A DNA stretch of 63,085 nt, the filler included, from Chrysochromulina tobinii (Eukaryota), in the NCBI GenBank assembly GCA_001275005.1. It is 4 parts of 4 records of this genome, joined end to end, with 100 filler letters (N's around TTAATTAATTAA, not from the genome) between each part and the next. Parts side by side here need not be neighbours in the genome. Positions count along the whole stretch, not along the records: positions 16,846 to 31,567 come from JWZX01000680.1; 3 more parts are not named here. The stretch is one strand, 5' to 3'. Below, one piece after another: positions 19,515-53,496 of the stretch. Below the pieces are notes generated by a model. It was not told the origin of the DNA and did not search any database. It saw only the letters and a program-made list of their open reading frames with translations. Made by a program: the position numbers and the translations under genes. How positions within the stretch are numbered: position 1 is the first letter of the stretch; each line of letters starts with the position of its first letter.

Positions 19515-22500
19515 ATGCACGCGGCAATGCTCCTCAGCTTGCTGTACCCGCCGATCACGGGCTACAGCGTGGCGTACGGCCCCGGGGCACACAGCGTGCC
19601 GCCGATCGCTCCGCAGCGGCGACCCGCGCCAGCGCGTGTGGCAGCTCTGAGGATGGAGGTGGAGGCGGCGGCGCCATCGGCGGTCCAGTTGGCTGTGTCC
19701 TCCACTTTCCAGCTCCCAGGTGGCAGCGCCGGCAGCAGCATAGGCAGCAGCAGCAGCGATGGCGGCGATGGCGGCGTCGGAGAGGAGGACTGGTCGTTCT
19801 GGCTGTCGCGCCCGCGATACGCCCGCTTGCGCGACATCGCCCTCTCCATCACCGTGCGAAGGACGGTCAACGAGGCCGAGCTCGCGCTCAAGCTCGCTCG
19901 GGAGTACTCGTCGAATCCGTCGCTGCTCCAGGATATCGACTTCTCGTCGCTGATCCTGCGGCTACAGAGAGACATCGACGTGAACAACGCGCCGCTCAGC
20001 GCCTCCGGGATGCTCTCGGCGGCCGAGCTCGACGAGATCTTGAAGCGCCAGATCGACGCGATCGCCGAGCTGAAGGCCAACCCTCTGGCGCTCGAGCTGG
20101 CGCTGGATGGAGCGGTGAGCGGCGCGGCGGGAAAGCTGCCCAAGCTGCGCCGCGTCATCTCGCGCGCTCGTGAGCTTCCGTTAACGATCGATCTGCCCGC
20201 CATCCAAGGAGACGGCGGTCTGGACTTCCGACTCGCTCTCAATGAGAGCAAGAATGTCGTCGAGGCGGTCCAGCAGGCGTGGCAGCGGCTGAGCGGCACG
20301 TCGCCCGAGAAAGAAGAGACTCTCATGACCCTCCAGCAAGAGTCGCGGGCGTTGCTCTCTCTACGCGCCGAGGCGACGAAACTCCGTGGAGGTGATGGCG
20401 TCTGATTGCCACTGATTGCCATTGATTGCCATTGATTGCCATTGATTGCCACTGATTGCCACTGATTGCCACTGATTGCCATCAGAGGCGACGAAACTCC
20501 GTGGAGGTGATGGCGTCTGATTGCCACTGATTGCCACTGATTGCCATTGATTGTCATTGATTGCCATTGATTGCCATTGATTGCCACTGATTGCCATCAG
20601 AGGCGACGAAACTCCGTGGAGGTGATGGCGTCTGATTGCCATTGATTGCCCTTGATTGCCATTGACTGCCATTGATTGCCATTGATTGCCATCAGAGGCG
20701 ACGAAACTCCGTGGAGGTGATGGCGTCCGATTGCCATGCGGCTGATGGCCACACGAGTGCAGCTGATTGCCACCCGACGCCCCTTGACGAACCCGACTCC
20801 CCTTTCGCAGGCATCAAGCTCGTGCAGCGCCAAAAGGAGCTCAAGGCGGCCTACCTAATTAGGTTTGGCACCTCGGCAGGATTGATGGAGGAGACGTTAC
20901 GCGCGGACGTGGCCATCTGCAAGCTCCAAAAGGAGCTCGGGCTCAAGTACGTTGATTGCCATTGATTGCCATTGATTGCCATTGATTGCAGATGATTGCC
21001 GATGATTGCCAATGATTCGCGAGCTGGAAGAGGGATCGTGGGCTCAAGTCCGCTCTCATCTTCGTGATTGCCTTATGATTGTGACTCGATTGCGACTGAT
21101 GATCCCTGATTGCGTCTCCCTAATATGGCAGGTCCGCTCTGCTCGAAATGGAGCGCATCTTCCTGACTCTCGAGTCTGAGCTCGCACTCACCTCGTCCCT
21201 CATCGACCAGGTGATTGATTACGTCTGATTGCATCCTGATGGGGACTGATTACTCTCGAGTCTGAGCTCGCACTCACCTCGTCCCTCATCGACCAGGTGA
21301 GGACCACTGAGGACCACTGAGGACCACTGAGTGCTATTTGATGACCTCCCATGACCTCCCATGACCTCCCATGACCACGGATGCTCCCCCGTCCGTCACC
21401 GGCCAGCTGCTCGAGGCCGTGCAGCGCTACGGCGAGATGGAGGCGAGATTGCACGCGATGGTGACCGAGGTGCAGCGAGATCAGCATGCACGCGTGGACG
21501 AGGATCAGCTACTTCAGCTCGAGCAGCAGATCTTCGTAGAGCTCTTGCAACTGGGGCTGCAGTCACAGGTAATTGACGACCTTTGAGTGCATTCTGACGA
21601 CATCCGATGACCTTTGAGAGCATACTGATGACATCCGATGACCTTTGAGAGCATGCTGATGACATCCGATGACCTTTGAGAGCATACTGATGGCATCCGA
21701 TGACCTTTGAGTGCATACTGATGACATCTGGTCGCATCTCGCAGGACACGGGTAGACCGGAAAGCTTCTCGTGGCCGCGCACGCGCGAGGCGCTCCAGGT
21801 CAATGCCAAGCGTGCCGGCGAAGGGCTTGCGTTCTACTCCCGAGGCCTCCGGCTCATGGGCGAGGATGTTCAGCTGATGGTCAATATGATCAGCCGCGCC
21901 GTCGTCCAAGGGTACGCTGATTGCGTCTGATTGCGTCTGATTGCGTCTAATTGCCTAATATGATCAGCCGCGCCGTCGTCCAAGGGTACGCCCAAGACGA
22001 CGCGAAGCTCTCTCACTGATGACTGATGACCTCACTGATGACCGTTGATCTCTCACTGATGGCCGTTGATTACCAAGGGTATGGGAAGCTCTCCCCACAG
22101 CAGAGGTAGGGGAGGCATGACAGTGCTCCCCACGGCGCCCTCTCCCCACAGGTACACCCTCAAGCCGCGGGAGGCGAAGTTGCTGCAGCGCATAGCCAAG
22201 GACCTCTTCACGCTCGTGCCCTTCGTCATCATCCTCATCATCCCTCTCTCGCCACTCGGGCATGTGCTCGTCTTCTCCTTCATCCAGCGCTTCTTCCCAG
22301 GTGATCTCCCGCTGATCTCCCGCTCATCTCTGACCTCGGATGACCTCGGATGACCTCGGATGATCACGGATGATCCCGGATGATCACGGATGATCTCGGA
22401 TGACACCTGATGACCCTTTGGAGTGCCTCTGAGCGCGATCTCGTCCTCGGCAGATTTCTACCCGTCGCAATTCACAGAGTCTCGTCAGAACATCATGTCG

Positions 22501-22849
22501 ATGTACTCGGCCATCACAGCCCCGAGCACAGGTGCGCTGACGAACCTCTGACGAACCTCTGATGACCTATGATTGCCTTCCTCATCACAGCCCCGAGCAC
22601 AGGTGCGCGGCTGAGCCTCGGTGCGGACCTCTGATGACCTATGATGAGGACCTCTGATTGCCTCCCTCATCAGGTGCGCGGCTGAGCCTCGGTGCGGACC
22701 CAGCAGAGCAGACGGAACAGGCGGGGGAGGTGGCGCAAGCAGTTGCGGGTGCGGTCATTGGCACCGAGGTGGCGCTGATGAAGGCCGAGGTGACGGAGAC
22801 GGGCAAGGCGGAGGCGGAGGCTACGGGCAAGGCGGAGACGAAGTCCTGA
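19515..22849 (+). CDS. LETM1-like protein, probably plastid-targeted; 8 exons
   Basis: Exons 19515-20391, 20811-20946, 21132-21210, 21407-21568, 21745-21911, 22152-22300, 22454-22531, 22674-22849, all GT-AG. Spliced C-terminal part reads [10 protein letters not shown]...[58 protein letters not shown] (LETM1-like). N-terminus looks like signal peptide plus transit peptide ending ALRM. Confidence 0.8.
20392..20810 (+). repeat. Intron built from (YTGATTGCCA)n 10-mers plus three copies of the exon end and donor
   Basis: Read directly from the sequence. Confidence 0.9.
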
Positions 22850-24636: not shown

Positions 24637-27600
24637 TCATCGCGTGCGCTTGGGCGCTGCTTTGGAGGGTTGCCTCGCTGTCGCGCCGCTCGACCCCTTG
24701 CGAGGCGTCGTCTTGGGCGCATGGCCGGACGAGGCTCGATCTCGCTTGGAGCTCGATCTCGGCTGAGCTGACGCCGCGCGCGGTGGCGTCGGGCTCGGCG
24801 GCGGCGGGTTCGGCGGCGGCAGCGGCGTGTGCCGCTGCCGCTTGCGTGCGGCCATGATGGTCTCGAATGCCATCTTTGTCTTCACGAAGACTTCGGTTGT
24901 ATCACGAGCCCTGTAATGACCGACGCAATCAGGTGGTCATCAGGAGTCATTATTAGTCATCAGGAGTCATCAGTAGTCACTCAGGGGGCAATCAGGTGTC
25001 ATCAGGAGTCACATCTCACGTTTGAGAGTCGAAGGCCGACGTTTTATCTGGGTGATAGACGAGCGACAGCTTCCGATATGCGGATTTCACTTCACTCGTC
25101 GAAGCGAAACGGCTGAGACCAAGCGTCGCGTATGACTCCACCAATGAGAGCCCGTCCCTCGCCCAGCGTGTGCCTGATGTGGACGAGAGACGAGGCGCCG
25201 TGGTGAGCACACGCATTCTCGGGCAGGAGCTGAGGGCATGGAAACCCCTTAATGTCCCAATCGAAGCATTTGGAGGTGCACTCAGAGGCACCCAGAGGCA
25301 CTCAGAGGCACTCAGAGGCACCCAGAGGCACTCAGAGGCACTCAGAGGCACTCAGACGCACCCAGAGGCACTCAGAGGCACTCAGAGGCAACCAGATGGG
25401 CACACCTTTAATGTCCCAATCGAAGCATTTGGAGGTGCGCCGGTCGCCACTGAAGATACACAAGCGCTCGAACGCCGTGCCGAGCGCGCGTGACCATTCG
25501 ATCTTGAGGCAGGCGTGCTCTTGCCAGCCACCGCCACCGAGCGCGTGAATGACGAACCTGGCGAGCCGATCGGGTCTGAGCATGCACATGCCGCCGCTGA
25601 CGAAACGCGCCGCGTTGAGCGTGCGCTCTCGCCCGTCGACGGTGAGTGGCACCTGATGAGGGAGGCAATCAGCCACCATTAGGACGCCATCAGTCGTACT
25701 CTGGACGTAATCAGTCCCCATCAGAATGCAATCAGACGTAACCGGTCCCCATCAGGATGCAATCTGACACAATCAGCGTACCGTCTGGCGCATGAGGAAT
25801 GCAATCAGCCTGATGAGGGAGGCAATCAGACACAATCAGCGTACCGTCTGGCGCATGAGGAATGCAATCAGCCTGATGAGGGAGGCAATCTGACACAATC
25901 AGCGTACCGTCTGGCGCATGAGCAGCCCTGCGAGCACCAGAGCCCAGAACGACGCGGCGACGAACCTGATGAGGGAGGCAATCAGTCTGATGAGGCATGC
26001 AATCAGATATGTGAGCCCAGAACGACGCGGCGACGCACGTGACGGCCAGTGCCGCGAGCAAAGAGCGGCGCGGCTGTCGTGTGGACGGACGTCGACGTAA
26101 CGACCGTAGATTGACCGCCATGGCCGCGAGCAGCAGAGGTAACGTGACGCCGCCGCGCCCGGCATCCGTCGCGGCGGCGGCGGCGCCGGGAAGCCAGAGG
26201 GGCGCATAGCCACACCTGATGAACGACACAATCAGAGGCCATCAGAGGCCATCAGAGGCCATCAGAGGCCATCAGAGGCCATTCAGAGGTCATCAGAGGC
26301 CATCAGAGGTCATCAGAGGTCATCAGAGGTCATCCGAGGTCATCCGAGGACATCCGTGGCCATCAGAGGTCACTCAGAGGCCATCAGAGGTCATTAGAGG
26401 TCATCAGAGGTGATCAGAGGTCATCAGAGGTCATCAGAGGTCGTCAGAGGTCATCAGAGGTCATCAGAGGTCATCAGAGGCATTTTGAGGTCATCAGAGG
26501 TCATCATCACCTCTCGATCACAGCGCCACCGAAAGCGCTCAGCGCGAGGAGCCTGTTGGGTACCGGTAGCCCCGTCGTGCCGGCAGCGAGGAAGAGGGTC
26601 AGCAGCGCGCAGCTTGCATGCACCTAATGAGGGACGCAATCAGAGGTATTTAGAGGTCCTCAGAAGAGGCACTCAGGGTTGCATGCATACAGTCATGCAC
26701 CTGATGAGGGACGCAATCAGAGGTATTTAGAGGTCCTCAGAAGAGGGTTGCATGCATACCGTCATACGGAGCGTGGGCGACAGCAATCAGTCTGATGAGG
26801 CATGTAATCAGAAGAGGCTCTCAGGGTTGCATGCATACCGTCATACGGAGCGTGGGCGACAGCAGTGGCGGGTCTAGACTGCTGCTGAAGCGCAGTGCGT
26901 GATATGTGAGCCACGAACCTGTATTCATGGTACAAGAGGCGACCCGTCGCTGTCAGTCGCCATCTGTCGCAATCAGACGCAATCCGACGCACTCAGTCGC
27001 GCTCAGTACGTGATGCGTGCGCCACGCACCCAGAGGCCATCAGAGGCGATACGCACCCTGAGCAATCAGTTTCAATCAAATGCAATCAAATGCAATCAGA
27101 GGCCATCAGAGGTCATCGGAGGCCATCAGAGGCGCCACGCACCCAGGGCAAGGTGCCAGCTCAGACTGATGAGGGAGGCAATCAGTCTGATGAGGCATGC
27201 AATCAGATATGTGAGCCACGCACCCAGGGCAAGGTGCCAGCTCAGACGATAGAGCAGCCGCACCGCGCCGGAGAGTACGCTGAGCTCCGAGGCCATCATC
27301 ACCGTCTCACTCGCTAGAGGCTGACCAGCGACGCTCTCAGCGCGAGTTGCCACATTTGGGGCGACCTTAGCGAGTTGCCATTTTTGGGTCGGCACAGCCG
27401 CCGCGCCGCCGTGGGCACCCCCCTTGTCAAGCACCGAGGCTAGCGAGGCTGGAGAGGCTTCGAGGCTAGCGAGGCTGGAGAAGGCCTTCGAAGCGTCTCT
27501 CGAGGCAGGCTTTGACGACACCGCACCTCGAAGCCTCGCGATGGCTCCGACGGCCCAAAGGCTCAGCTTGCCCACAGTGTCGAACGCGCCACCGCGGCTG

Positions 27601-28037
27601 CCGCCGCTCGGATGGGCTTCGGCCTCGGCCTGGCCGAGCTGTCGCACGTAGCTCGGGATGCGGAACGCGTCGCGCACCCAGCCGAGCAGGAACCCGTTGA
27701 GCGAGATCGACGAGACGAGCGCCTCGCAGTTCCGGCCGAGGTACAGATGATGTGCGCCGAAGATGCCAAAGAGGGCCCAGAGCACGTACGCGACGAGCAT
27801 CCGGAACACCGAGAACGGGACTCGCACGGCAGGAGCACCAGCCGGTGCGTGTGCCTCGTTGGGGACGGCGGCAGGCGCGGAAGCCGCCCGTGCTGCGCGC
27901 AGCTCTGAGGCGATCAGCAGCTCTCTGCGTGCTGAAACGGTCCGCCCGACGCCATGGAGCTGGCCATCAATGGCGGCGGTGCTGGAGAGCATGAGAAGCA
28001 GCAGGATGCCGGCTATGGGTGGCGAACTTCGTCTCAT
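24637..28037 (-). CDS. TM2-domain + multi-TM + C-terminal DnaJ protein (DNAJC22/wurst-like); 8 exons
   Basis: Introns 26919-27223, 26624-26838, 26216-26510, 25966-26038, 25653-25907, 25174-25405, 24911-25019. TM2 motif LVAYVLWALFGIFGAHHLYLGR...GWVRDAFRIPSYV; J domain YATLGL..SEVKSAYRKLSLVYHPDK..FVKTKMAFETI; signal-like N-terminus MRRSSPPIAGILLLLML. Confidence 0.82.
26216..26510 (-). repeat. Intron consisting almost entirely of (CTGATGRCCT)n 10-mers
   Basis: Read directly (plus strand CATCAGAGGT/C repeats). Confidence 0.9.
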
Positions 28038-28511
28038 TGTGGCTTTTGCAGTGGCTTTGAGGTACCGCATGTGAGGACGCCACCCTTCTGCGAGCGCGAG
28101 TGAATGGTCAACGGCGTGTGATGACGCGTGTGAATGGTCAACGGCACAGACGGCGCATTCTCTGCTCAAGCAAGGACAAAGTTTGTGGAGGTCCTGTAAA
28201 TCGTGACGCAAGGTTGGTAGTTGACCTACCTGACAACACGCGACAGAAGAACTGGCAGGTGCGTCGAAGCATTGCATGATAATGACGTGGCCCCGACCCA
28301 CCGCCATATCATAGCTGGACACGTCTCCGGGGATGGCAGGAGCAGGAACACGGCCAGGAACACGGCCCGAGCCACCGAACTCGCCGAGAGCACGTCGGAA
28401 CACATGTGTGTGCTGAGAGCACAGATCACAGCTCCGGGCGGGCGCTGTGGCGCTGAGGCAAGTATCTCCGCCCAAATCAGGCAAGTATCTCCGCTGTCTC
28501 GGGGCCGCCGT

Positions 28512-28835: not shown

Positions 28836-31256
<2,421 letters not shown>

Positions 31257-50810: not shown

Positions 50811-53496
50811 CGGCAGTGGTGAGGGCGAGGGCGGTGACTGCGAGGGCGAGGGCGGTGGAGGCGAGGGCGAGGGCGGTGGAGGCGAGGGCGAGGGCGGCGG
50901 CGGAGAGGGCGGCGGCGGCGAGGGTGGAGGCGGCGGAGAGAGTGGCGGCGGTGCCGGGCAAGTTGAGACTGTGCCAGAGACGTCGGTGGGGATTGTTGGC
51001 CAGGAGCAGACTGTGCCACCCTGAACATAGACACCGCCACCGGAGGCTGTGTTCCCACTGATGGTGCTCGATAAGATGGACACTCTGCCACTCGAGACAT
51101 AGACCGCCGCAGCTGTGTTGCCAGTGATGGTGCTCGATGAGATGGCCACTGTGCCGGAATTGACGGCGACACCGCCGCCTTGCCATCCAGCTGTGTTGCC
51201 ACTGATAGTGCACGATGAGATGGCCACTGTGCCTCCATAGACTGTGACACCACCGCCATAGTAACCTGTATTCCCGTAGATCGAGGAAGACGTTATCGTG
51301 ACCGTGCCGGACTCGACATAGACACCGCCTCCATAGGTAGCTGTATTCCCACTGATGGTGCACGATGAGATGACCACAGTGCTTCCCGTGACAGCGACAC
51401 CACCGCCATAGGTAGCTGTGTTGGAGTAGAACTGGGAGTTCACGATTGACACTGTGCCGTAAGGGTTGGAGACCCTTACACCACCGCCCCATCCGCTAGC
51501 TGTGTTCCCATAGATCGAAGAAAACGTTATCATGACCGTGCCAGAAGAGACGAGGATACCGCCTCCCTCCCCATATTGTTCGATGTTGCCTCCCGTGATG
51601 TTGAGCCCGATCAGTTGCACGACGGCGGCCGATGAGCCTGGGCTGATGTTCAGCACACGGCGCGGACTCCAGGCACTCGCTTGTGCGTGCAGCACGACCG
51701 AGCCTGCCACCGCCGCCTCGATGATGACGCTCCTGGTGATGCTGAGCTCGGCGGTGAGGTAGTAGGTCCCGGAGGCTAGGACGATGCGGCCGACGGCGGT
51801 GTTGGCGAGTGCACTGGTCAGGCCGGCAGTGTTGCTCACCGCCGCGGTCCCCGGCGGATACGGCGGCGGCGGCGGCGGCAACGATGCCGATGGCGGCAGT
51901 GGTGAGGGCGAGGGCGGTGACTGCGAGGGCGAGGGCGGTGGAGGCGAGGGCGAGGGCGGTGGAGGCGAGGGCGAGGGCGGCAAGCGCGGCGGCGAGGGCG
52001 GTGCCTTGGGATACATGTATGGCGCGTAGCTGATGGGGGTTATGACAAGTTGCCCATTTCCTGAATGAACTCCTTGCTGATTGAGCTCGATGTGGCCAGA
52101 AGCGAAGCTCGACCCTCCGCCAGCACCGCCCCCGCAAGTAGCACCCGGTTGAGAATCAAAGAATGCTGCGCCGCCAAAATACCCCCCCCCACCACCTGCA
52201 CAGTTGTACACGGTCGTGGGCACACACTGTCCGAAGCCATATCCGCCTCCATTTCCCAATCGGCCGTCACAACTCCCTGGGAAGTAAGGGGCAATGCCGC
52301 CCAGCAATTGGGTACCTCCTGTGTTGAGGCACTCCGCCATGTGCCCACCGCCACCGTTGCCACCAATTGGACCTCCTCCTGCGCCACCAGAAGACCAACT
52401 AGACGCTCCTCCACCACCGCCAGCGACGACCAGACGTGATGTGAGGTCGGTCAAACTGGTCCGGACGTCAGTTGCGCCGCCGCCAGGCGCAGCATTTAAC
52501 CATTGACCGGGATCAGGGGGCCGGCTTGGACCTCCTCCGTTGAATCCTCCCAGTATGGTCGAGATGGAGTAATCCGAATTGCGAGAGGCCCCTGCTCCGC
52601 CAACAAGGATATACAGCGTTTGACCGGCACTGACATTGATCAGCGCTGTGATACGGCCACCAAGACCTCCTGCGCCCCACTGGCCGGTGTTGTATCCTGT
52701 TCCTCCAGAGGCGCCATAAGCATCGATGCGAACCGAGGAAACAAATGGCGGAACGATGTAGGTCTGAGCCACACCGGAATACATGAATGTGGTCGCTGCT
52801 GGTATTGGTGGTCTTGAGGGCGATGGCGGTGGCGGCAACGGCGGCGACGGCAAAAATGGCGGTGATGGAGGCGACGCTGCCCCGCACCACGTGCGCATCA
52901 TCGAGACGAGCGGCGCTGGCGTGCTCGGCAGGCCGCCGCCGAGCCGCACGCCATCCAGCTGCGCCGGGCTGAGGGCGACGCCCCACACCAGCAGGTCCTT
53001 CATCTGGCCCGTGAACATCGGGTCGACAGACCAGTGGCTCTTGCCCACGTAGAGGTTCGAGCGGCTCACCGGCAGCGGAAAGCGCATCGACGACGTCGCC
53101 CCGACGCTCGCACCGTTCCAGTAGATCTGGGCGGGCCCGGAGGTGTCGGTGAGGCTCGCACGCGACTGCACGACCGCGACGTGAGTCCACACGTTTGCGG
53201 GGAATGATGGCGCCGAGCTTGCATAGAAGTGGGATTCGGAACTCCCATGAAACACCTGGTAGTACATTGGGGAATAAAATCCCAGGAGGACATTGTCTGC
53301 ATTTGGACCATAGCCGAAATCGATGACGCGATCCCAGGAATAGCCTGTCCTCGTGCGGTAGACCCACGCGCAGAGCGTGAAGCCAAGCCCCCCGCCGACG
53401 AGTCCGGTGCGCGACGTGGCCGTCAAGTAGGAGGTCGCCGCCCCGGTGAAGGTGTATGCGCCGCCGACGGCGCACGGAGAAGCCGGCGGCAGCGAG

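What the first reader, a model, noticed from the sequence alone, without database searches (positions are those of the whole stretch)
25966..27223. One intron appears to have been copied from another intron 1.2 kb away in the same gene
Seen: a 52-nt block at 25966-26017 is identical to 27166-27217 (gene-sense GGCTCACATATCTGATTGCATGCCTCATCAGACTGATTGCCTCCCTCATCAG). Its first 12 nt (GGCTCACATATC) derive from exon 2 (~26901-26912), which flanks intron 1 and not intron 4, so the direction is intron 1 to intron 4. The switch occurs at a GGCTC microhomology with the local duplication. Inference: the 73-nt intron 4 is a local exon duplication plus a template switch to a neighbouring intron that supplied the branch point and acceptor.
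Basis: partly seen in the sequence, partly recalled or inferred. Interest (0 to 1): 0.8.

Follow-up and report, generated by a model that had tools for sequence, protein, structure and literature searches.

The report
New intron copied from neighbouring intron
A 73-base intron in a haptophyte alga's membrane chaperone-like gene is cut out of the RNA, appears to be missing from close relatives, and was likely made when 26 bases of the exon were duplicated and 47 more were copied from another intron 1.2 kb upstream, a rare case where the raw material of a new intron can be traced.

Summary
The 52-nt blocks at 25966-26017 and 27166-27217 are identical, and they recur in independent assemblies and in RNA contigs.

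- **The gene.** It lies on the minus strand and encodes a TM2 plus J-domain protein (DNAJC22-like). An NCBI-named protein places it in Chrysochromulina tobinii. My model has 8 exons and 7 GT..AG introns.
- **Intron 4 (25966-26038, 73 nt).** It is a 26-nt copy of the start of exon 5, which supplies the GT donor, plus a 47-nt filler. With the shared GGCTC, that filler is identical to part of intron 1. Splicing restores the uninterrupted exon. An RNA contig of exactly the predicted spliced junction exists.
- **Relatives.** Four variant sequences read exon 4 straight into exon 5 while keeping introns 3 and 5.
- **Copy number.** A 22-nt core of the block occurs only in this gene across a 241-million-record metagenome collection, so it is not a genome-wide repeat.
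- **The donor.** The donor block sits in an 81-nt insertion of the same build (33-nt duplication plus 48-nt filler) that also varies among relatives.
- **Wider pattern.** A third partial copy lies in intron 2. The last 20 nt is a generic 3' intron module.

I rate this a new variant of a known kind, with interest 0.7.

The parts
24637..28070 (-). Coding region of a TM2 plus J-domain (DNAJC22-like) gene. Exons: 28070-27224, 26918-26839, 26623-26511, 26215-26039, 25965-25908, 25652-25406, 25173-25020, 24910-24637. The open reading frame is 649 aa.
   Evidence: Gene model and open frame. Pfam TM2 (3.3e-10) and DnaJ (2.5e-10). P0019, named by NCBI as a Chrysochromulina tobinii DNAJC22-like protein, is identical to the model in exact blocks covering 257 of its 264 residues.
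25966..26038 (-). Intron 4, 73 nt, GTGCGT...CATCAG.
   Evidence: RNA run X12 contig record 14 is 58 nt. That equals the last 28 nt of exon 4 plus the first 30 nt of exon 5, and it was laid at 26013-26066 with 1 other letter and 4 loose letters, exactly as a spliced-junction unitig should behave. RNA unitigs break at 26037 and 25965 in X11 and X12. Removing the 73 nt keeps the frame open.
26013..26038 (-). Intron copy of the 26-nt local duplication (GTGCGTCGCCGCGTCGTTCTGGGCTC). It supplies the GT donor.
   Evidence: D16, spacing 73. It matches 25940-25965 at 25 of 26 positions. The one difference is G against T at intron position +3.
25940..25965 (-). Exon copy of the duplication (start of exon 5, GTTCGTCGCC...GGGCTC).
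25966..26012 (-). 47-nt filler (ACATATC plus two 20-nt modules joined by A). With GGCTC at 26013-26017 it forms the 52-nt block. It carries CTGAT branch-type motifs and the CAG acceptor.
   Evidence: and 36 (modules at 25987-26006 and 25966-25985).
27166..27217 (-). Donor copy of the 52-nt block, inside intron 1.
   Evidence: It is identical in relative L003 and is translated as AWLTYLIACLIRLIASLIS in P0006-P0010.
26919..27223 (-). Intron 1, 305 nt.
   Evidence: RNA unitigs of X11, X12 and X13 stop at 27222, and X11/X12 unitigs at 26890, where the DNA run X1 carries on (table 8; X13's piece over 26890 is a shorter 26890-27080 record). That fits the junction 27224|26918. P0011 and P0019 both read LALG|SWLTYHALRF.
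27134..27247 (-). Insertion of the same build: 33-nt duplicate 27215-27247 (end of exon 1 plus the first 9 nt of the intron), 48-nt filler 27167-27214, then the 33-nt duplicate again at 27134-27166. The period is 81 nt.
   Evidence: 27134/27215, 33 nt, spacing 81. It is absent from P0012-P0014 (LALG|AWRL*) and P0015-P0018 (LALG|ASDDL*).
26901..26918 (-). Start of exon 2, GTTCGTGGCTCACATATC. This is the template of the first 18 nt of intron 1 (17 of 18 identical) and the ultimate source of ACATATC.
   Evidence: D11.
26783..26811 (-). Third, partial copy of the core (CTGATTACATGCCTCATCAGACTGATTGC, 1 mismatch). It lies in intron 2 between two 42-nt duplicates (26744-26785, 26823-26864, period 79).
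   Evidence: (D9). P0011 reads intron 2 without this 79-nt unit.
25653..25907 (-). Intron 5, 255 nt. It contains 2.7 copies of a 63-nt unit (25755-25922) that repeats the end of exon 5 plus the donor.
   Evidence: The joint 25650->25906 (cut +2, GT..AG on the minus strand) appears in 3 of 4 RNA runs (table 5). The repeat unit is from TRF.

Best explanation
Intron 4 is a real, spliced 73-nt intron that was likely created in one DNA-level event: 26 nt of the exon were duplicated, and a 47-nt filler was copied between the two copies from intron 1 of the same gene, 1.2 kb upstream.

Inferred course of events:
1. A growing DNA strand, at a stalled fork or a break under repair, had copied the exon as far as ...CTGGGCTC.
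2. It paired through the 5-nt microhomology GGCTC with the 5' part of intron 1.
3. It copied ACATATC plus two 20-nt CTGATTGC..CTCATCAG modules, up to a CAG.
4. It then rejoined the original template 26 nt behind the point where it had left.

What the result provides: the upstream duplicate begins with GT and acts as the donor. The filler brings branch-type CTGAT motifs and the AG acceptor. Because the unit is exactly one period (73 nt), splicing gives back the uninterrupted exon.

Shown directly: the anatomy, the splicing, the absence from relatives' sequences, and the restriction of the core to this gene.

Inferred: a single event, a DNA rather than RNA copying step, the direction, and that the T-to-G difference at donor position +3 arose afterwards.
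For: Anatomy: a 26-nt duplicate (25 of 26 identical) flanks 47 nt. With GGCTC this is 52/52 identical to 27166-27217. The period equals the intron length, 73 nt.

Splicing:
- The 58-nt junction contig is seen in RNA run X12.
- Unitig breaks fall at 26037 and 25965 in X11 and X12.
- Removing the intron leaves a 649-aa frame open.

Recency and polymorphism: P0002-P0005 are 4 distinct sequences on 6 contigs from two sources. They start inside intron 3, read exon 4 directly into exon 5, and then continue into intron 5. Their alignment scores are 449-508 against the intron-removed window sequence and 326-330 against the intron-bearing one, which stops at LGSHI*.

Not a dispersed repeat: the 22-nt core gave 9 stretches in the metagenome collection, and all of them are this gene.

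Direction: intron 1 carries GTGCGTGGCTCACATATC, which matches the start of exon 2 at 17 of 18 positions.

Same build elsewhere:
- The 81-nt unit in intron 1 is present in 5 of 13 haplotype clusters and absent in 7.
- A 79-nt unit lies in intron 2.
- A 75-nt unit lies in exon 6 of haplotype P0022.
- Similar units occur in neighbouring genes at 21166, 21883, 22512 and 22600.
Against: - The right-hand junction (CATCAG|GTTCG) has no, or at most 1 nt of, microhomology. That is unusual for a purely microhomology-primed return.
- Both introns start with GTGCGT while both downstream exons start with GTTCGT. Either two identical T-to-G changes occurred, or the history differs, for example a 58-nt proto-intron copy followed by a 15-nt conversion.
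- The copied block ends exactly at a CAG. An RNA 3' end would also explain this.
- Direct RNA support for intron 4 splicing is one contig in 1 of 4 runs, plus break points in 2 of 4. All of it comes from assembled contigs, not raw reads. The same libraries hold the unspliced form at similar depth.
- P0002-P0005 could in principle be partly spliced transcripts, since such contigs exist (L002). I could not fetch their DNA.
- The exon 1 tree of haplotypes is unresolved, and no contig links the intron 1 and intron 4 sites. The order of events therefore rests on structure alone.
Confidence: 0.62

Rival explanations
1. RNA-mediated copying. A reverse transcriptase would copy the 3' part of an excised or alternatively spliced intron 1 RNA ending in ...CATCAG. 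The copy would be inserted at a staggered nick (target-primed, giving the 26-nt target duplication), or recombined in as cDNA, with 5' truncation and microhomology at GGCTC.
For: - The copied block ends exactly at a CAG acceptor-like site.
- Its 5' end is variable and microhomologous, while the 3' junction lacks microhomology.
- The duplications have variable length (26, 33, 42, 42 and 34 nt in the five units), resembling variable target duplications.
- All copies are in the sense orientation and within one transcript.
Against: - In today's gene the CAG at 27166 is internal to the 305-nt intron 1.
- RNA unitigs run on to 27222 with no branch at 27224, so no 58-nt excision product is seen.
- Neighbouring introns 3 and 5 are intact, so there is no cDNA-type intron loss.
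- The intron 2 copy ends inside a module, not at a CAG.
- No reverse transcriptase gene or poly(A) trace lies at the site.
Confidence: 0.15
2. A short non-autonomous mobile element (an introner-like unit whose 3' end is CTGATTGCCTCCCTCATCAG) inserts into genes with unusually long target duplications. Under this view both introns received related copies.
For: - The 20-nt module occurs 17 times at up to 3 mismatches in 63 kb, against 0.01 expected. Seven hits are exact. The hits outside this gene lie near 22.6, 30.3, 58.4 and 60.8 kb.
- The module begins with CTGAT and ends with ATCAG, which are 5-nt inverted ends.
- Similar duplicate-filler-duplicate units occur in neighbouring genes.
Against: - The specific 22-nt core is confined to this gene in the metagenome scan.
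- The block carries 7-12 nt that derive from exon 2 of this gene.
- The duplications are 26-42 nt and variable, against the 3-9 bp quoted for introners (PMC9860276, passage seen).
- C. tobinii appears only in that survey's list of screened genomes and nowhere else in the stored supplement (the file was cut when stored).
- The inverted ends fold no better than shuffled sequence (z about 0).
Confidence: 0.12
3. The direction is the reverse. Intron 4 formed first, taking ACATATC from exon 2 about 950 nt upstream through GGCTC. Its block was later copied into intron 1.
For: Both directions need one simple copy and one two-template event. No linked haplotype data decide between them. The exon 1 tree is unresolved.
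Against: - It would be a coincidence that the block landed just after GTGCGTGGC and so rebuilt an 18-nt likeness (17 of 18) to the start of exon 2.
- The intron 1 unit is found in 5 haplotype clusters, including diverged ones. Intron 4 is seen only in the window's type and in one 96%-identical variant.
Confidence: 0.06
4. Chance resemblance between low-complexity introns, or a mis-assembly.
For: Introns here are built from recurring 10-nt and 20-nt units.
Against: - The match is 52/52 and includes non-motif letters.
- No shuffle of 100 gave a match.
- The next longest dispersed intron matches are 20-23 nt.
- Both copies recur in independent assemblies and in RNA contigs.
Confidence: 0.01

Closest known systems
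[quoted passage not shown]
   Same: A new intron flanked by a direct duplication of the target. Foreign filler lies between the two copies. Presence or absence varies among close relatives.
   Different: - The duplication is 26 nt, not a short repeat.
- The filler's template is identified, and it is another intron of the same gene.
- A 5-nt microhomology marks one junction.
- The filler, not chance, supplies the branch motif and acceptor.
Tandem genomic duplication model (duplicated AGGT gives both splice sites; PMC3443670)
   Same: An exon segment is duplicated. The unit removed equals one period, so the coding sequence is restored exactly. The donor comes from the duplicate.
   Different: Only 26 of the 73 nt are duplicated exon. 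The acceptor comes from imported intron sequence, not from a second AGGT.
Intron transposition: new introns homologous to other introns (Oikopleura, Mycosphaerella; Table 1 of PMC3443670)
   Same: A new intron shares sequence with an older intron. Here the two are even in the same gene.
   Different: The copy is partial: 52 nt of a 305-nt intron. Its 5' end is a local exon duplicate. This signature is not expected from reverse splicing of a whole intron.
Introners (transposon-derived introns; PMC9860276 and PMC12130899, passages seen)
   Same: One splice site is carried by the inserted piece and the other is taken from the target duplication.
   Different: - Introners form multi-copy families with 3-9 bp target duplications and/or inverted ends.
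- Here the core is confined to one gene and the duplications are 26-42 nt and variable.
- The introner family illustrated for a Chrysochromulina sp. MAG carries its 5' splice site, whereas this unit carries its 3' site.
Microhomology-mediated template switching and polymerase-theta templated insertions (named from my own knowledge; only listings and abstracts of PMC8654963 and PMC11724358 were seen)
   Same: Microhomology at the switch point. A templated patch is copied from nearby sequence in cis. A local duplication results. The intron 1 unit has a multi-template filler.
   Different: The outcome is a working intron. One junction lacks microhomology. The enzymes were not tested.

Membership tests
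Spliceosomal intron (functional) | GT..AG ends, and removal from RNA leaves the reading frame open. | tested here: met
   The intron reads GTGCGT...CATCAG. A spliced-junction contig is present in RNA run X12, and break points appear in X11 and X12. The 649-aa frame is open only if the 73 nt are removed.
Recent intron gain | Absent at the same position in close relatives that keep the flanking introns. | tested here: met
   P0002-P0005 (4 variants, 6 contigs) read intron 3 end, then exon 4, then exon 5, then intron 5, without the 73 nt. Caveat: only the translated ORFs were seen, not the DNA. Partly spliced RNA is not formally excluded.
Tandem genomic duplication intron | The intron consists of duplicated exon sequence, with both splice sites coming from a duplicated AGGT. 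| tested here: not met
   Only 26 of 73 nt are an exon duplicate. The acceptor lies in the imported 47 nt.
Intron gain by break repair with filler | A direct repeat of the target flanks inserted non-local DNA. | tested here: met
   A 26-nt repeat (25 of 26 identical) flanks a 47-nt filler whose source is 1.2 kb away.
Intron gain by break repair with filler | Origin in a double-strand break. | not testable with these tools
   The sequence alone cannot tell a break from a stalled fork.
Intron transposition by reverse splicing | The new intron is a whole copy of the source intron, with no target duplication. | tested here: not met
   52 nt of a 305-nt source are shared, and a 26-nt target duplication is present.
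Introner / transposon-derived intron | A multi-copy family dispersed over the genome. | tested here: not met
   The 22-nt core gave 9 stretches in the metagenome collection, all of them this gene. The generic 20-nt 3' module is multi-copy (17 hits in the window), so a wider family is not excluded.
Introner / transposon-derived intron | Short fixed target duplication (3-9 bp) and/or terminal inverted repeats. | tested here: not met
   The duplications are 26, 33, 42, 42 and 34 nt. The only inverted ends are 5-nt CTGAT/ATCAG, with folding z about 0.
Microhomology-mediated template switch | Microhomology at the junctions, and a template in cis. | tested here: inconclusive
   The left junction has 5 nt (GGCTC). 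The right junction has 0-1 nt. The template lies 1.2 kb upstream on the same strand.
DNAJC22-like protein (host gene) | An N-terminal TM2 domain and a C-terminal J domain. | tested here: met
   Pfam TM2 at 3.3e-10 and DnaJ at 2.5e-10. The NCBI name on P0019 agrees.

The most novel reading that the evidence does not exclude
In Chrysochromulina tobinii and its close relatives, introns seed further introns in cis. A copy-choice process, without transposase, keeps duplicating 26-42 nt of a target. Between the two copies it pastes a 33-50-nt piece, carrying branch point and acceptor, taken from an intron within a few kb. This creates new introns in exons, enlarges old introns, and explains why many introns end in the same 20 nt.
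Probability: 0.4. Interest if true: 0.85.

Novelty: new variant of a known kind. Interest (0 to 1): 0.7.

Why it matters
How new spliceosomal introns arise is a long-standing open question. A 2012 review counted very few gains with a traceable mechanism: 5 for break repair and 14 for transposition (PMC3443670, Table 1 seen).

In this case every part of a young, working intron can be assigned a source:
- the donor comes from a duplicate of the exon;
- the branch point and acceptor come from a named stretch of another intron in the same gene;
- a microhomology marks the switch point;
- relatives lack the intron.

Several further insertions of the same build vary among haplotypes of this one gene, and more lie in neighbouring genes. 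The process therefore looks ongoing. It could be measured genome-wide or in mutation-accumulation lines of a culturable alga. It also warns annotators: the public gene model for this locus reads a piece of intron 4 (LIASLIR) as coding sequence.

Tried and rejected
- **Emiliania as the source.** My first guess came from recalled 10-nt intron repeats. I dropped it when P0019 carried the NCBI name Chrysochromulina tobinii and matched the model exactly.
- **Whole genome.** None is held for this window, so no genome-wide census was possible.
- **First read laying (4.3 kb, 90% likeness).** The joint table was swamped by 10-nt repeat noise. Only the contig end points were usable.
- **The ~140-nt exon 4 upstream of the block (26066-26203).** It had no cover in RNA run X16 and low cover in X14. 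Nothing is concluded from that.
- **Hairpin or inverted-end role for the block.** DNA folds of intron 4, the 58-nt start of intron 1, and both strands of the 52-mer gave z from -0.01 to 0.33. I rejected this idea.
- **Rfam scan of the whole window.** No match.
- **Tree of exon 1 from 13 haplotype clusters, meant to give the polarity of the 81-nt unit.** It was unresolved. Carriers of the unit needed 4 changes on the tree, and P0009 grouped with the most divergent type. Recombination or chimeric contigs are likely, so the tree is not used as evidence.
- **Molecular clock from L003.** Exon 1 differs at about 22 of 850 sites, but the 200 nt around the block differ at none. The rates are too uneven to date anything.
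- **P0001.** Its N-terminal half is unrelated sequence (rhodanese-like by my own reading, which I did not test). The contig is probably chimeric. Only its C-terminal part was used.
- **Automatic survey of duplicate-filler-duplicate units.** It kept 41 of 106 candidates, but it is noisy. It mixes in coding repeats and missed intron 4's donor because of the mismatch. I use it only as a pointer.
- **Literature.** The Emiliania genome paper is not held. Searches for introners or intron gain in haptophytes, Emiliania or C. tobinii found no description of this pattern. The C. tobinii genome paper mentions introns once in its main text.
Full report
**Observation.** The two 52-nt blocks are there and are identical (25966-26017 and 27166-27217; family D4). 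In one search the pattern gave 2 matches at up to 3 mismatches, and 0 of 100 shuffles gave any. Among exact repeats of 20 nt or more in the window, it is the longest pair more than 400 nt apart, apart from runs of N and an 88-nt GGCGAGGGC-type repeat at 50811/51894. Other matches between separate introns are 20-23 nt.

It is not an assembly error. Both copies recur in three further assemblies at 99.98-100% identity (L004-L009). The intron 1 copy alone is covered by L001, which ends at 26408, and by a diverged relative (L003). The intron 4 copy is in a transcript-like contig (L002). In four RNA runs, 31-mer contigs bridge each of the four junctions. The only other context seen for the block is the other locus (tables 7, 8).

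**Host gene and organism.** No genome is held for the window. I built a gene model on the minus strand from open frames, GT..AG sites and RNA contig ends. It has 8 exons, 7 introns of 305, 215, 295, 73, 255, 232 and 109 nt, and an open frame of 649 aa. Pfam finds TM2 in exon 1 and DnaJ in exon 7.

A database protein that NCBI names a DNAJC22-like protein of Chrysochromulina tobinii (P0019) is identical to my model in exact blocks covering 257 of its 264 residues. The window is therefore from that haptophyte or a near-identical strain. This replaces my first guess, Emiliania. The published genome is 59 Mb with 63.4% G+C, and its paper mentions introns once in the main text (PMC4580454, passages seen).

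**RNA evidence.** All runs are kept as assembled 31-mer contigs. Evidence therefore comes from which contigs exist and where they end.
- *Intron 5 (25653-25907):* joined across in 3 of 4 RNA runs (table 5).
- *Intron 3:* joined in X14 (record 23 with its loose end).
- *Intron 4:* run X12 holds a 58-nt contig. It was laid at 26013-26066 with one other letter and four loose letters. That is exactly what a contig made of the last 28 nt of exon 4 and the first 30 nt of exon 5 must look like. In X11 and X12 the flanking contigs stop at 26037 and 25965, the points where spliced and unspliced forms diverge.
- *Intron 1:* RNA contigs of X11, X12 and X13 stop at 27222, and those of X11 and X12 at 26890, whereas the DNA run goes on (table 8). 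This fits the junction 27224|26918. P0011 and P0019 also read that junction (LALG|SWLTYHALRF).

The libraries also hold unspliced forms at similar depth. The support for intron 4 is real but thin.

**Anatomy of intron 4.** In gene sense the region reads ...GCCGTCAC | GTGCGTCGCCGCGTCGTTCTGGGCTC ACATATC CTGATTGCATGCCTCATCAG A CTGATTGCCTCCCTCATCAG | GTTCGTCGCCGCGTCGTTCTGGGCTC TGGTG... (the single C at the ACATATC/module boundary belongs to both and is written twice).
- The first 26 nt of the intron repeat the first 26 nt of exon 5, with 25 of 26 identical.
- The next 47 nt, together with the preceding GGCTC, are the 52-nt block.
- One period is 73 nt, which equals the intron, so splicing restores the uninterrupted exon.
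- The duplicate gives the donor. The filler gives CTGAT motifs and the CAG acceptor. Their branch-point role is inferred.

**The donor.** In intron 1 the block continues leftward as GTGCGTGGCTCACATATC. This matches the first 18 nt of exon 2 (GTTCGTGGCTCACATATC, 26918-26901) at 17 of 18 positions. The letters ACATATC therefore have a local template at intron 1, with 8 of 9 matching letters before them. They have none at intron 4. This makes intron 1 to intron 4 the more parsimonious direction.

The block sits in a unit of the same build. A 33-nt duplicate (the end of exon 1 plus 9 nt of intron) lies at 27215-27247 and again at 27134-27166, around a 48-nt filler, with a period of 81 nt.

ORF-type proteins from relatives' contigs show the state of this unit. 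Of 13 haplotype clusters:
- 5 carry the unit (P0006-P0010);
- 3 read LALG|AWRL* without it (P0012-P0014);
- 4, the most divergent, read LALG|ASDDL* (P0015-P0018);
- 1 has exon 1 joined to exon 2 (P0011).

**Relatives and intron 4.**
- P0001, a 96% identical variant, has the intron.
- P0002-P0005 form one 90% cluster of 4 distinct sequences on 6 contigs from two sources. By my estimate from the frame translation they are about 94% identical to the window in exon 4.
- They begin in the end of intron 3, read exon 4 directly into exon 5, and then continue through intron 5. Their alignment scores are 449-508 against the intron-removed window sequence and 326-330 against the intron-bearing sequence, which stops.
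- Since L002 shows that partly spliced contigs exist, this is not proof. But L002 has lost intron 3 and kept intron 4, the opposite order.

**Not a dispersed repeat, but part of a pattern.** The 22-nt core of the block gave 9 stretches in the 241-million-record metagenome collection. All of them are this gene. Four of the assemblies carry the locus on contigs of 11-61 kb. I assume, but could not check, that they also hold the rest of the genome.
- A third, partial copy (29 nt, 1 mismatch) lies in intron 2 between 42-nt duplicates with a period of 79 nt. P0011 reads intron 2 without it.
- The last 20 nt, CTGATTGCCTCCCTCATCAG, is generic. It has 17 hits at up to 3 mismatches in the window against 0.01 expected. 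The hits outside this gene lie near 22.6, 30.3, 58.4 and 60.8 kb.
- Units of the same build occur in neighbouring genes. One example is 22512-22700, two 71-nt periods that would restore CACAG|GTGCGCGGC.
- One filler (35 nt, one difference) is shared between 21219 and 25707, in two genes on opposite strands.
- Other haplotypes carry a 75-nt unit inside exon 6 (P0022) or lack the 159-nt unit of intron 6 (P0023).

**Mechanism.** The best-supported reading is a DNA-level copy-choice event, either at a stalled fork or during break repair. It involves a 5-nt microhomology at the outward switch, a templated patch from 1.2 kb upstream, and a return 26 nt behind the point of departure. The intron 1 unit needs three such switches: to exon 2, to a module source, and back.

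Points against or still open:
- The return junction has no microhomology.
- Both introns begin GTGCGT while both exons begin GTTCGT.
- The copy ends at a CAG.

The last point keeps an RNA-templated route alive. A dedicated mobile element is less likely, for three reasons. The core is confined to one gene. The duplications are long and variable (26-42 nt, against 3-9 bp for introners; PMC9860276). And C. tobinii appears only in the list of genomes screened by that survey in the stored part of its supplement.

**Comparison and verdict.** The case combines features of two published proposals for intron gain: tandem genomic duplication and filler insertion at a repaired break (PMC3443670). It resembles the few reported new introns that are homologous to other introns. 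It fails the defining tests of pure tandem duplication, of whole-intron transposition and of introners.

I rate it a new variant of a known kind. The enzymology and the generality remain inferred.

Noticed in passing
window 25966-25985 and 16 other sites (e.g. 22654, 25653, 25810, 27166, 30290, 58407, 60823): A 20-nt module, CTGATTGCCTCCCTCATCAG, ends many introns. The hits outside this gene lie near 22.6, 30.3, 58.4 and 60.8 kb. There are 17 hits at up to 3 mismatches against 0.01 expected, and 7 are exact. The identity is too high for splice-signal selection alone.
   Followed up: partly
window 22512-22700 (+): Two adjacent 71-nt periods have the same build: duplicates of CATCACAGCCCCGAGCACAGGTGCGC and of GTGCGCGGCTGAGCCTCGGTGCGGACC around module-type fillers. 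Removing 142 nt would restore an uninterrupted sequence.
   Followed up: no
window 21219-21253 (+) and 25707-25741 (-): A 35-nt intron filler (TTACGTCTGATTGCATYCTGATGGGGACTGATTAC, one difference) is shared by two neighbouring genes on opposite strands, 4.5 kb apart. At 21166-21300 it lies between 49-nt duplicates of an exon end plus donor.
   Followed up: partly
window 25755-25943, 26617-26767, 25246-25438: Introns 5, 2 and 6 carry repeated copies of exon ends or starts together with their splice sites (63-nt unit, 77-nt unit, and a 34-nt duplicate 159 nt apart). The copy number or presence of these units differs in L002, P0001, P0021 and P0023.
   Followed up: partly
P0022 (relative), equivalent to window about 25540-25590: Another haplotype has a 75-nt insertion in exon 6. 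It is a 42-nt duplicate (RPDRLARFVIHALG) plus a 33-nt module-type filler. It is in frame and could also be spliced from AG|GTTCGT to AG|GTTCGT.
   Followed up: no
P0019 (public gene model of this locus): The public model skips most of exon 1 after ARLRG and all of exon 4. It reads LIASLIR, which is part of the intron 4 filler, as a micro-exon. This is probably an annotation error caused by these introns.
   Followed up: partly
L003:1-640 against window upstream of 28100: The relative's contig has no similarity to the window upstream of the transcript start, although exon 1 is about 97% identical. This is either a structural difference or a chimeric contig.
   Followed up: no
window 16801, 31567, 31623, 50766: Runs of N of about 45 nt. 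These are gaps or withheld stretches.
   Followed up: no
window 28836-29847 (-): The neighbouring gene upstream encodes a DEAD-box-type helicase (Helicase_C, 8.3e-23) with a glycine-rich tail. Its introns also hold short repeats.
   Followed up: no
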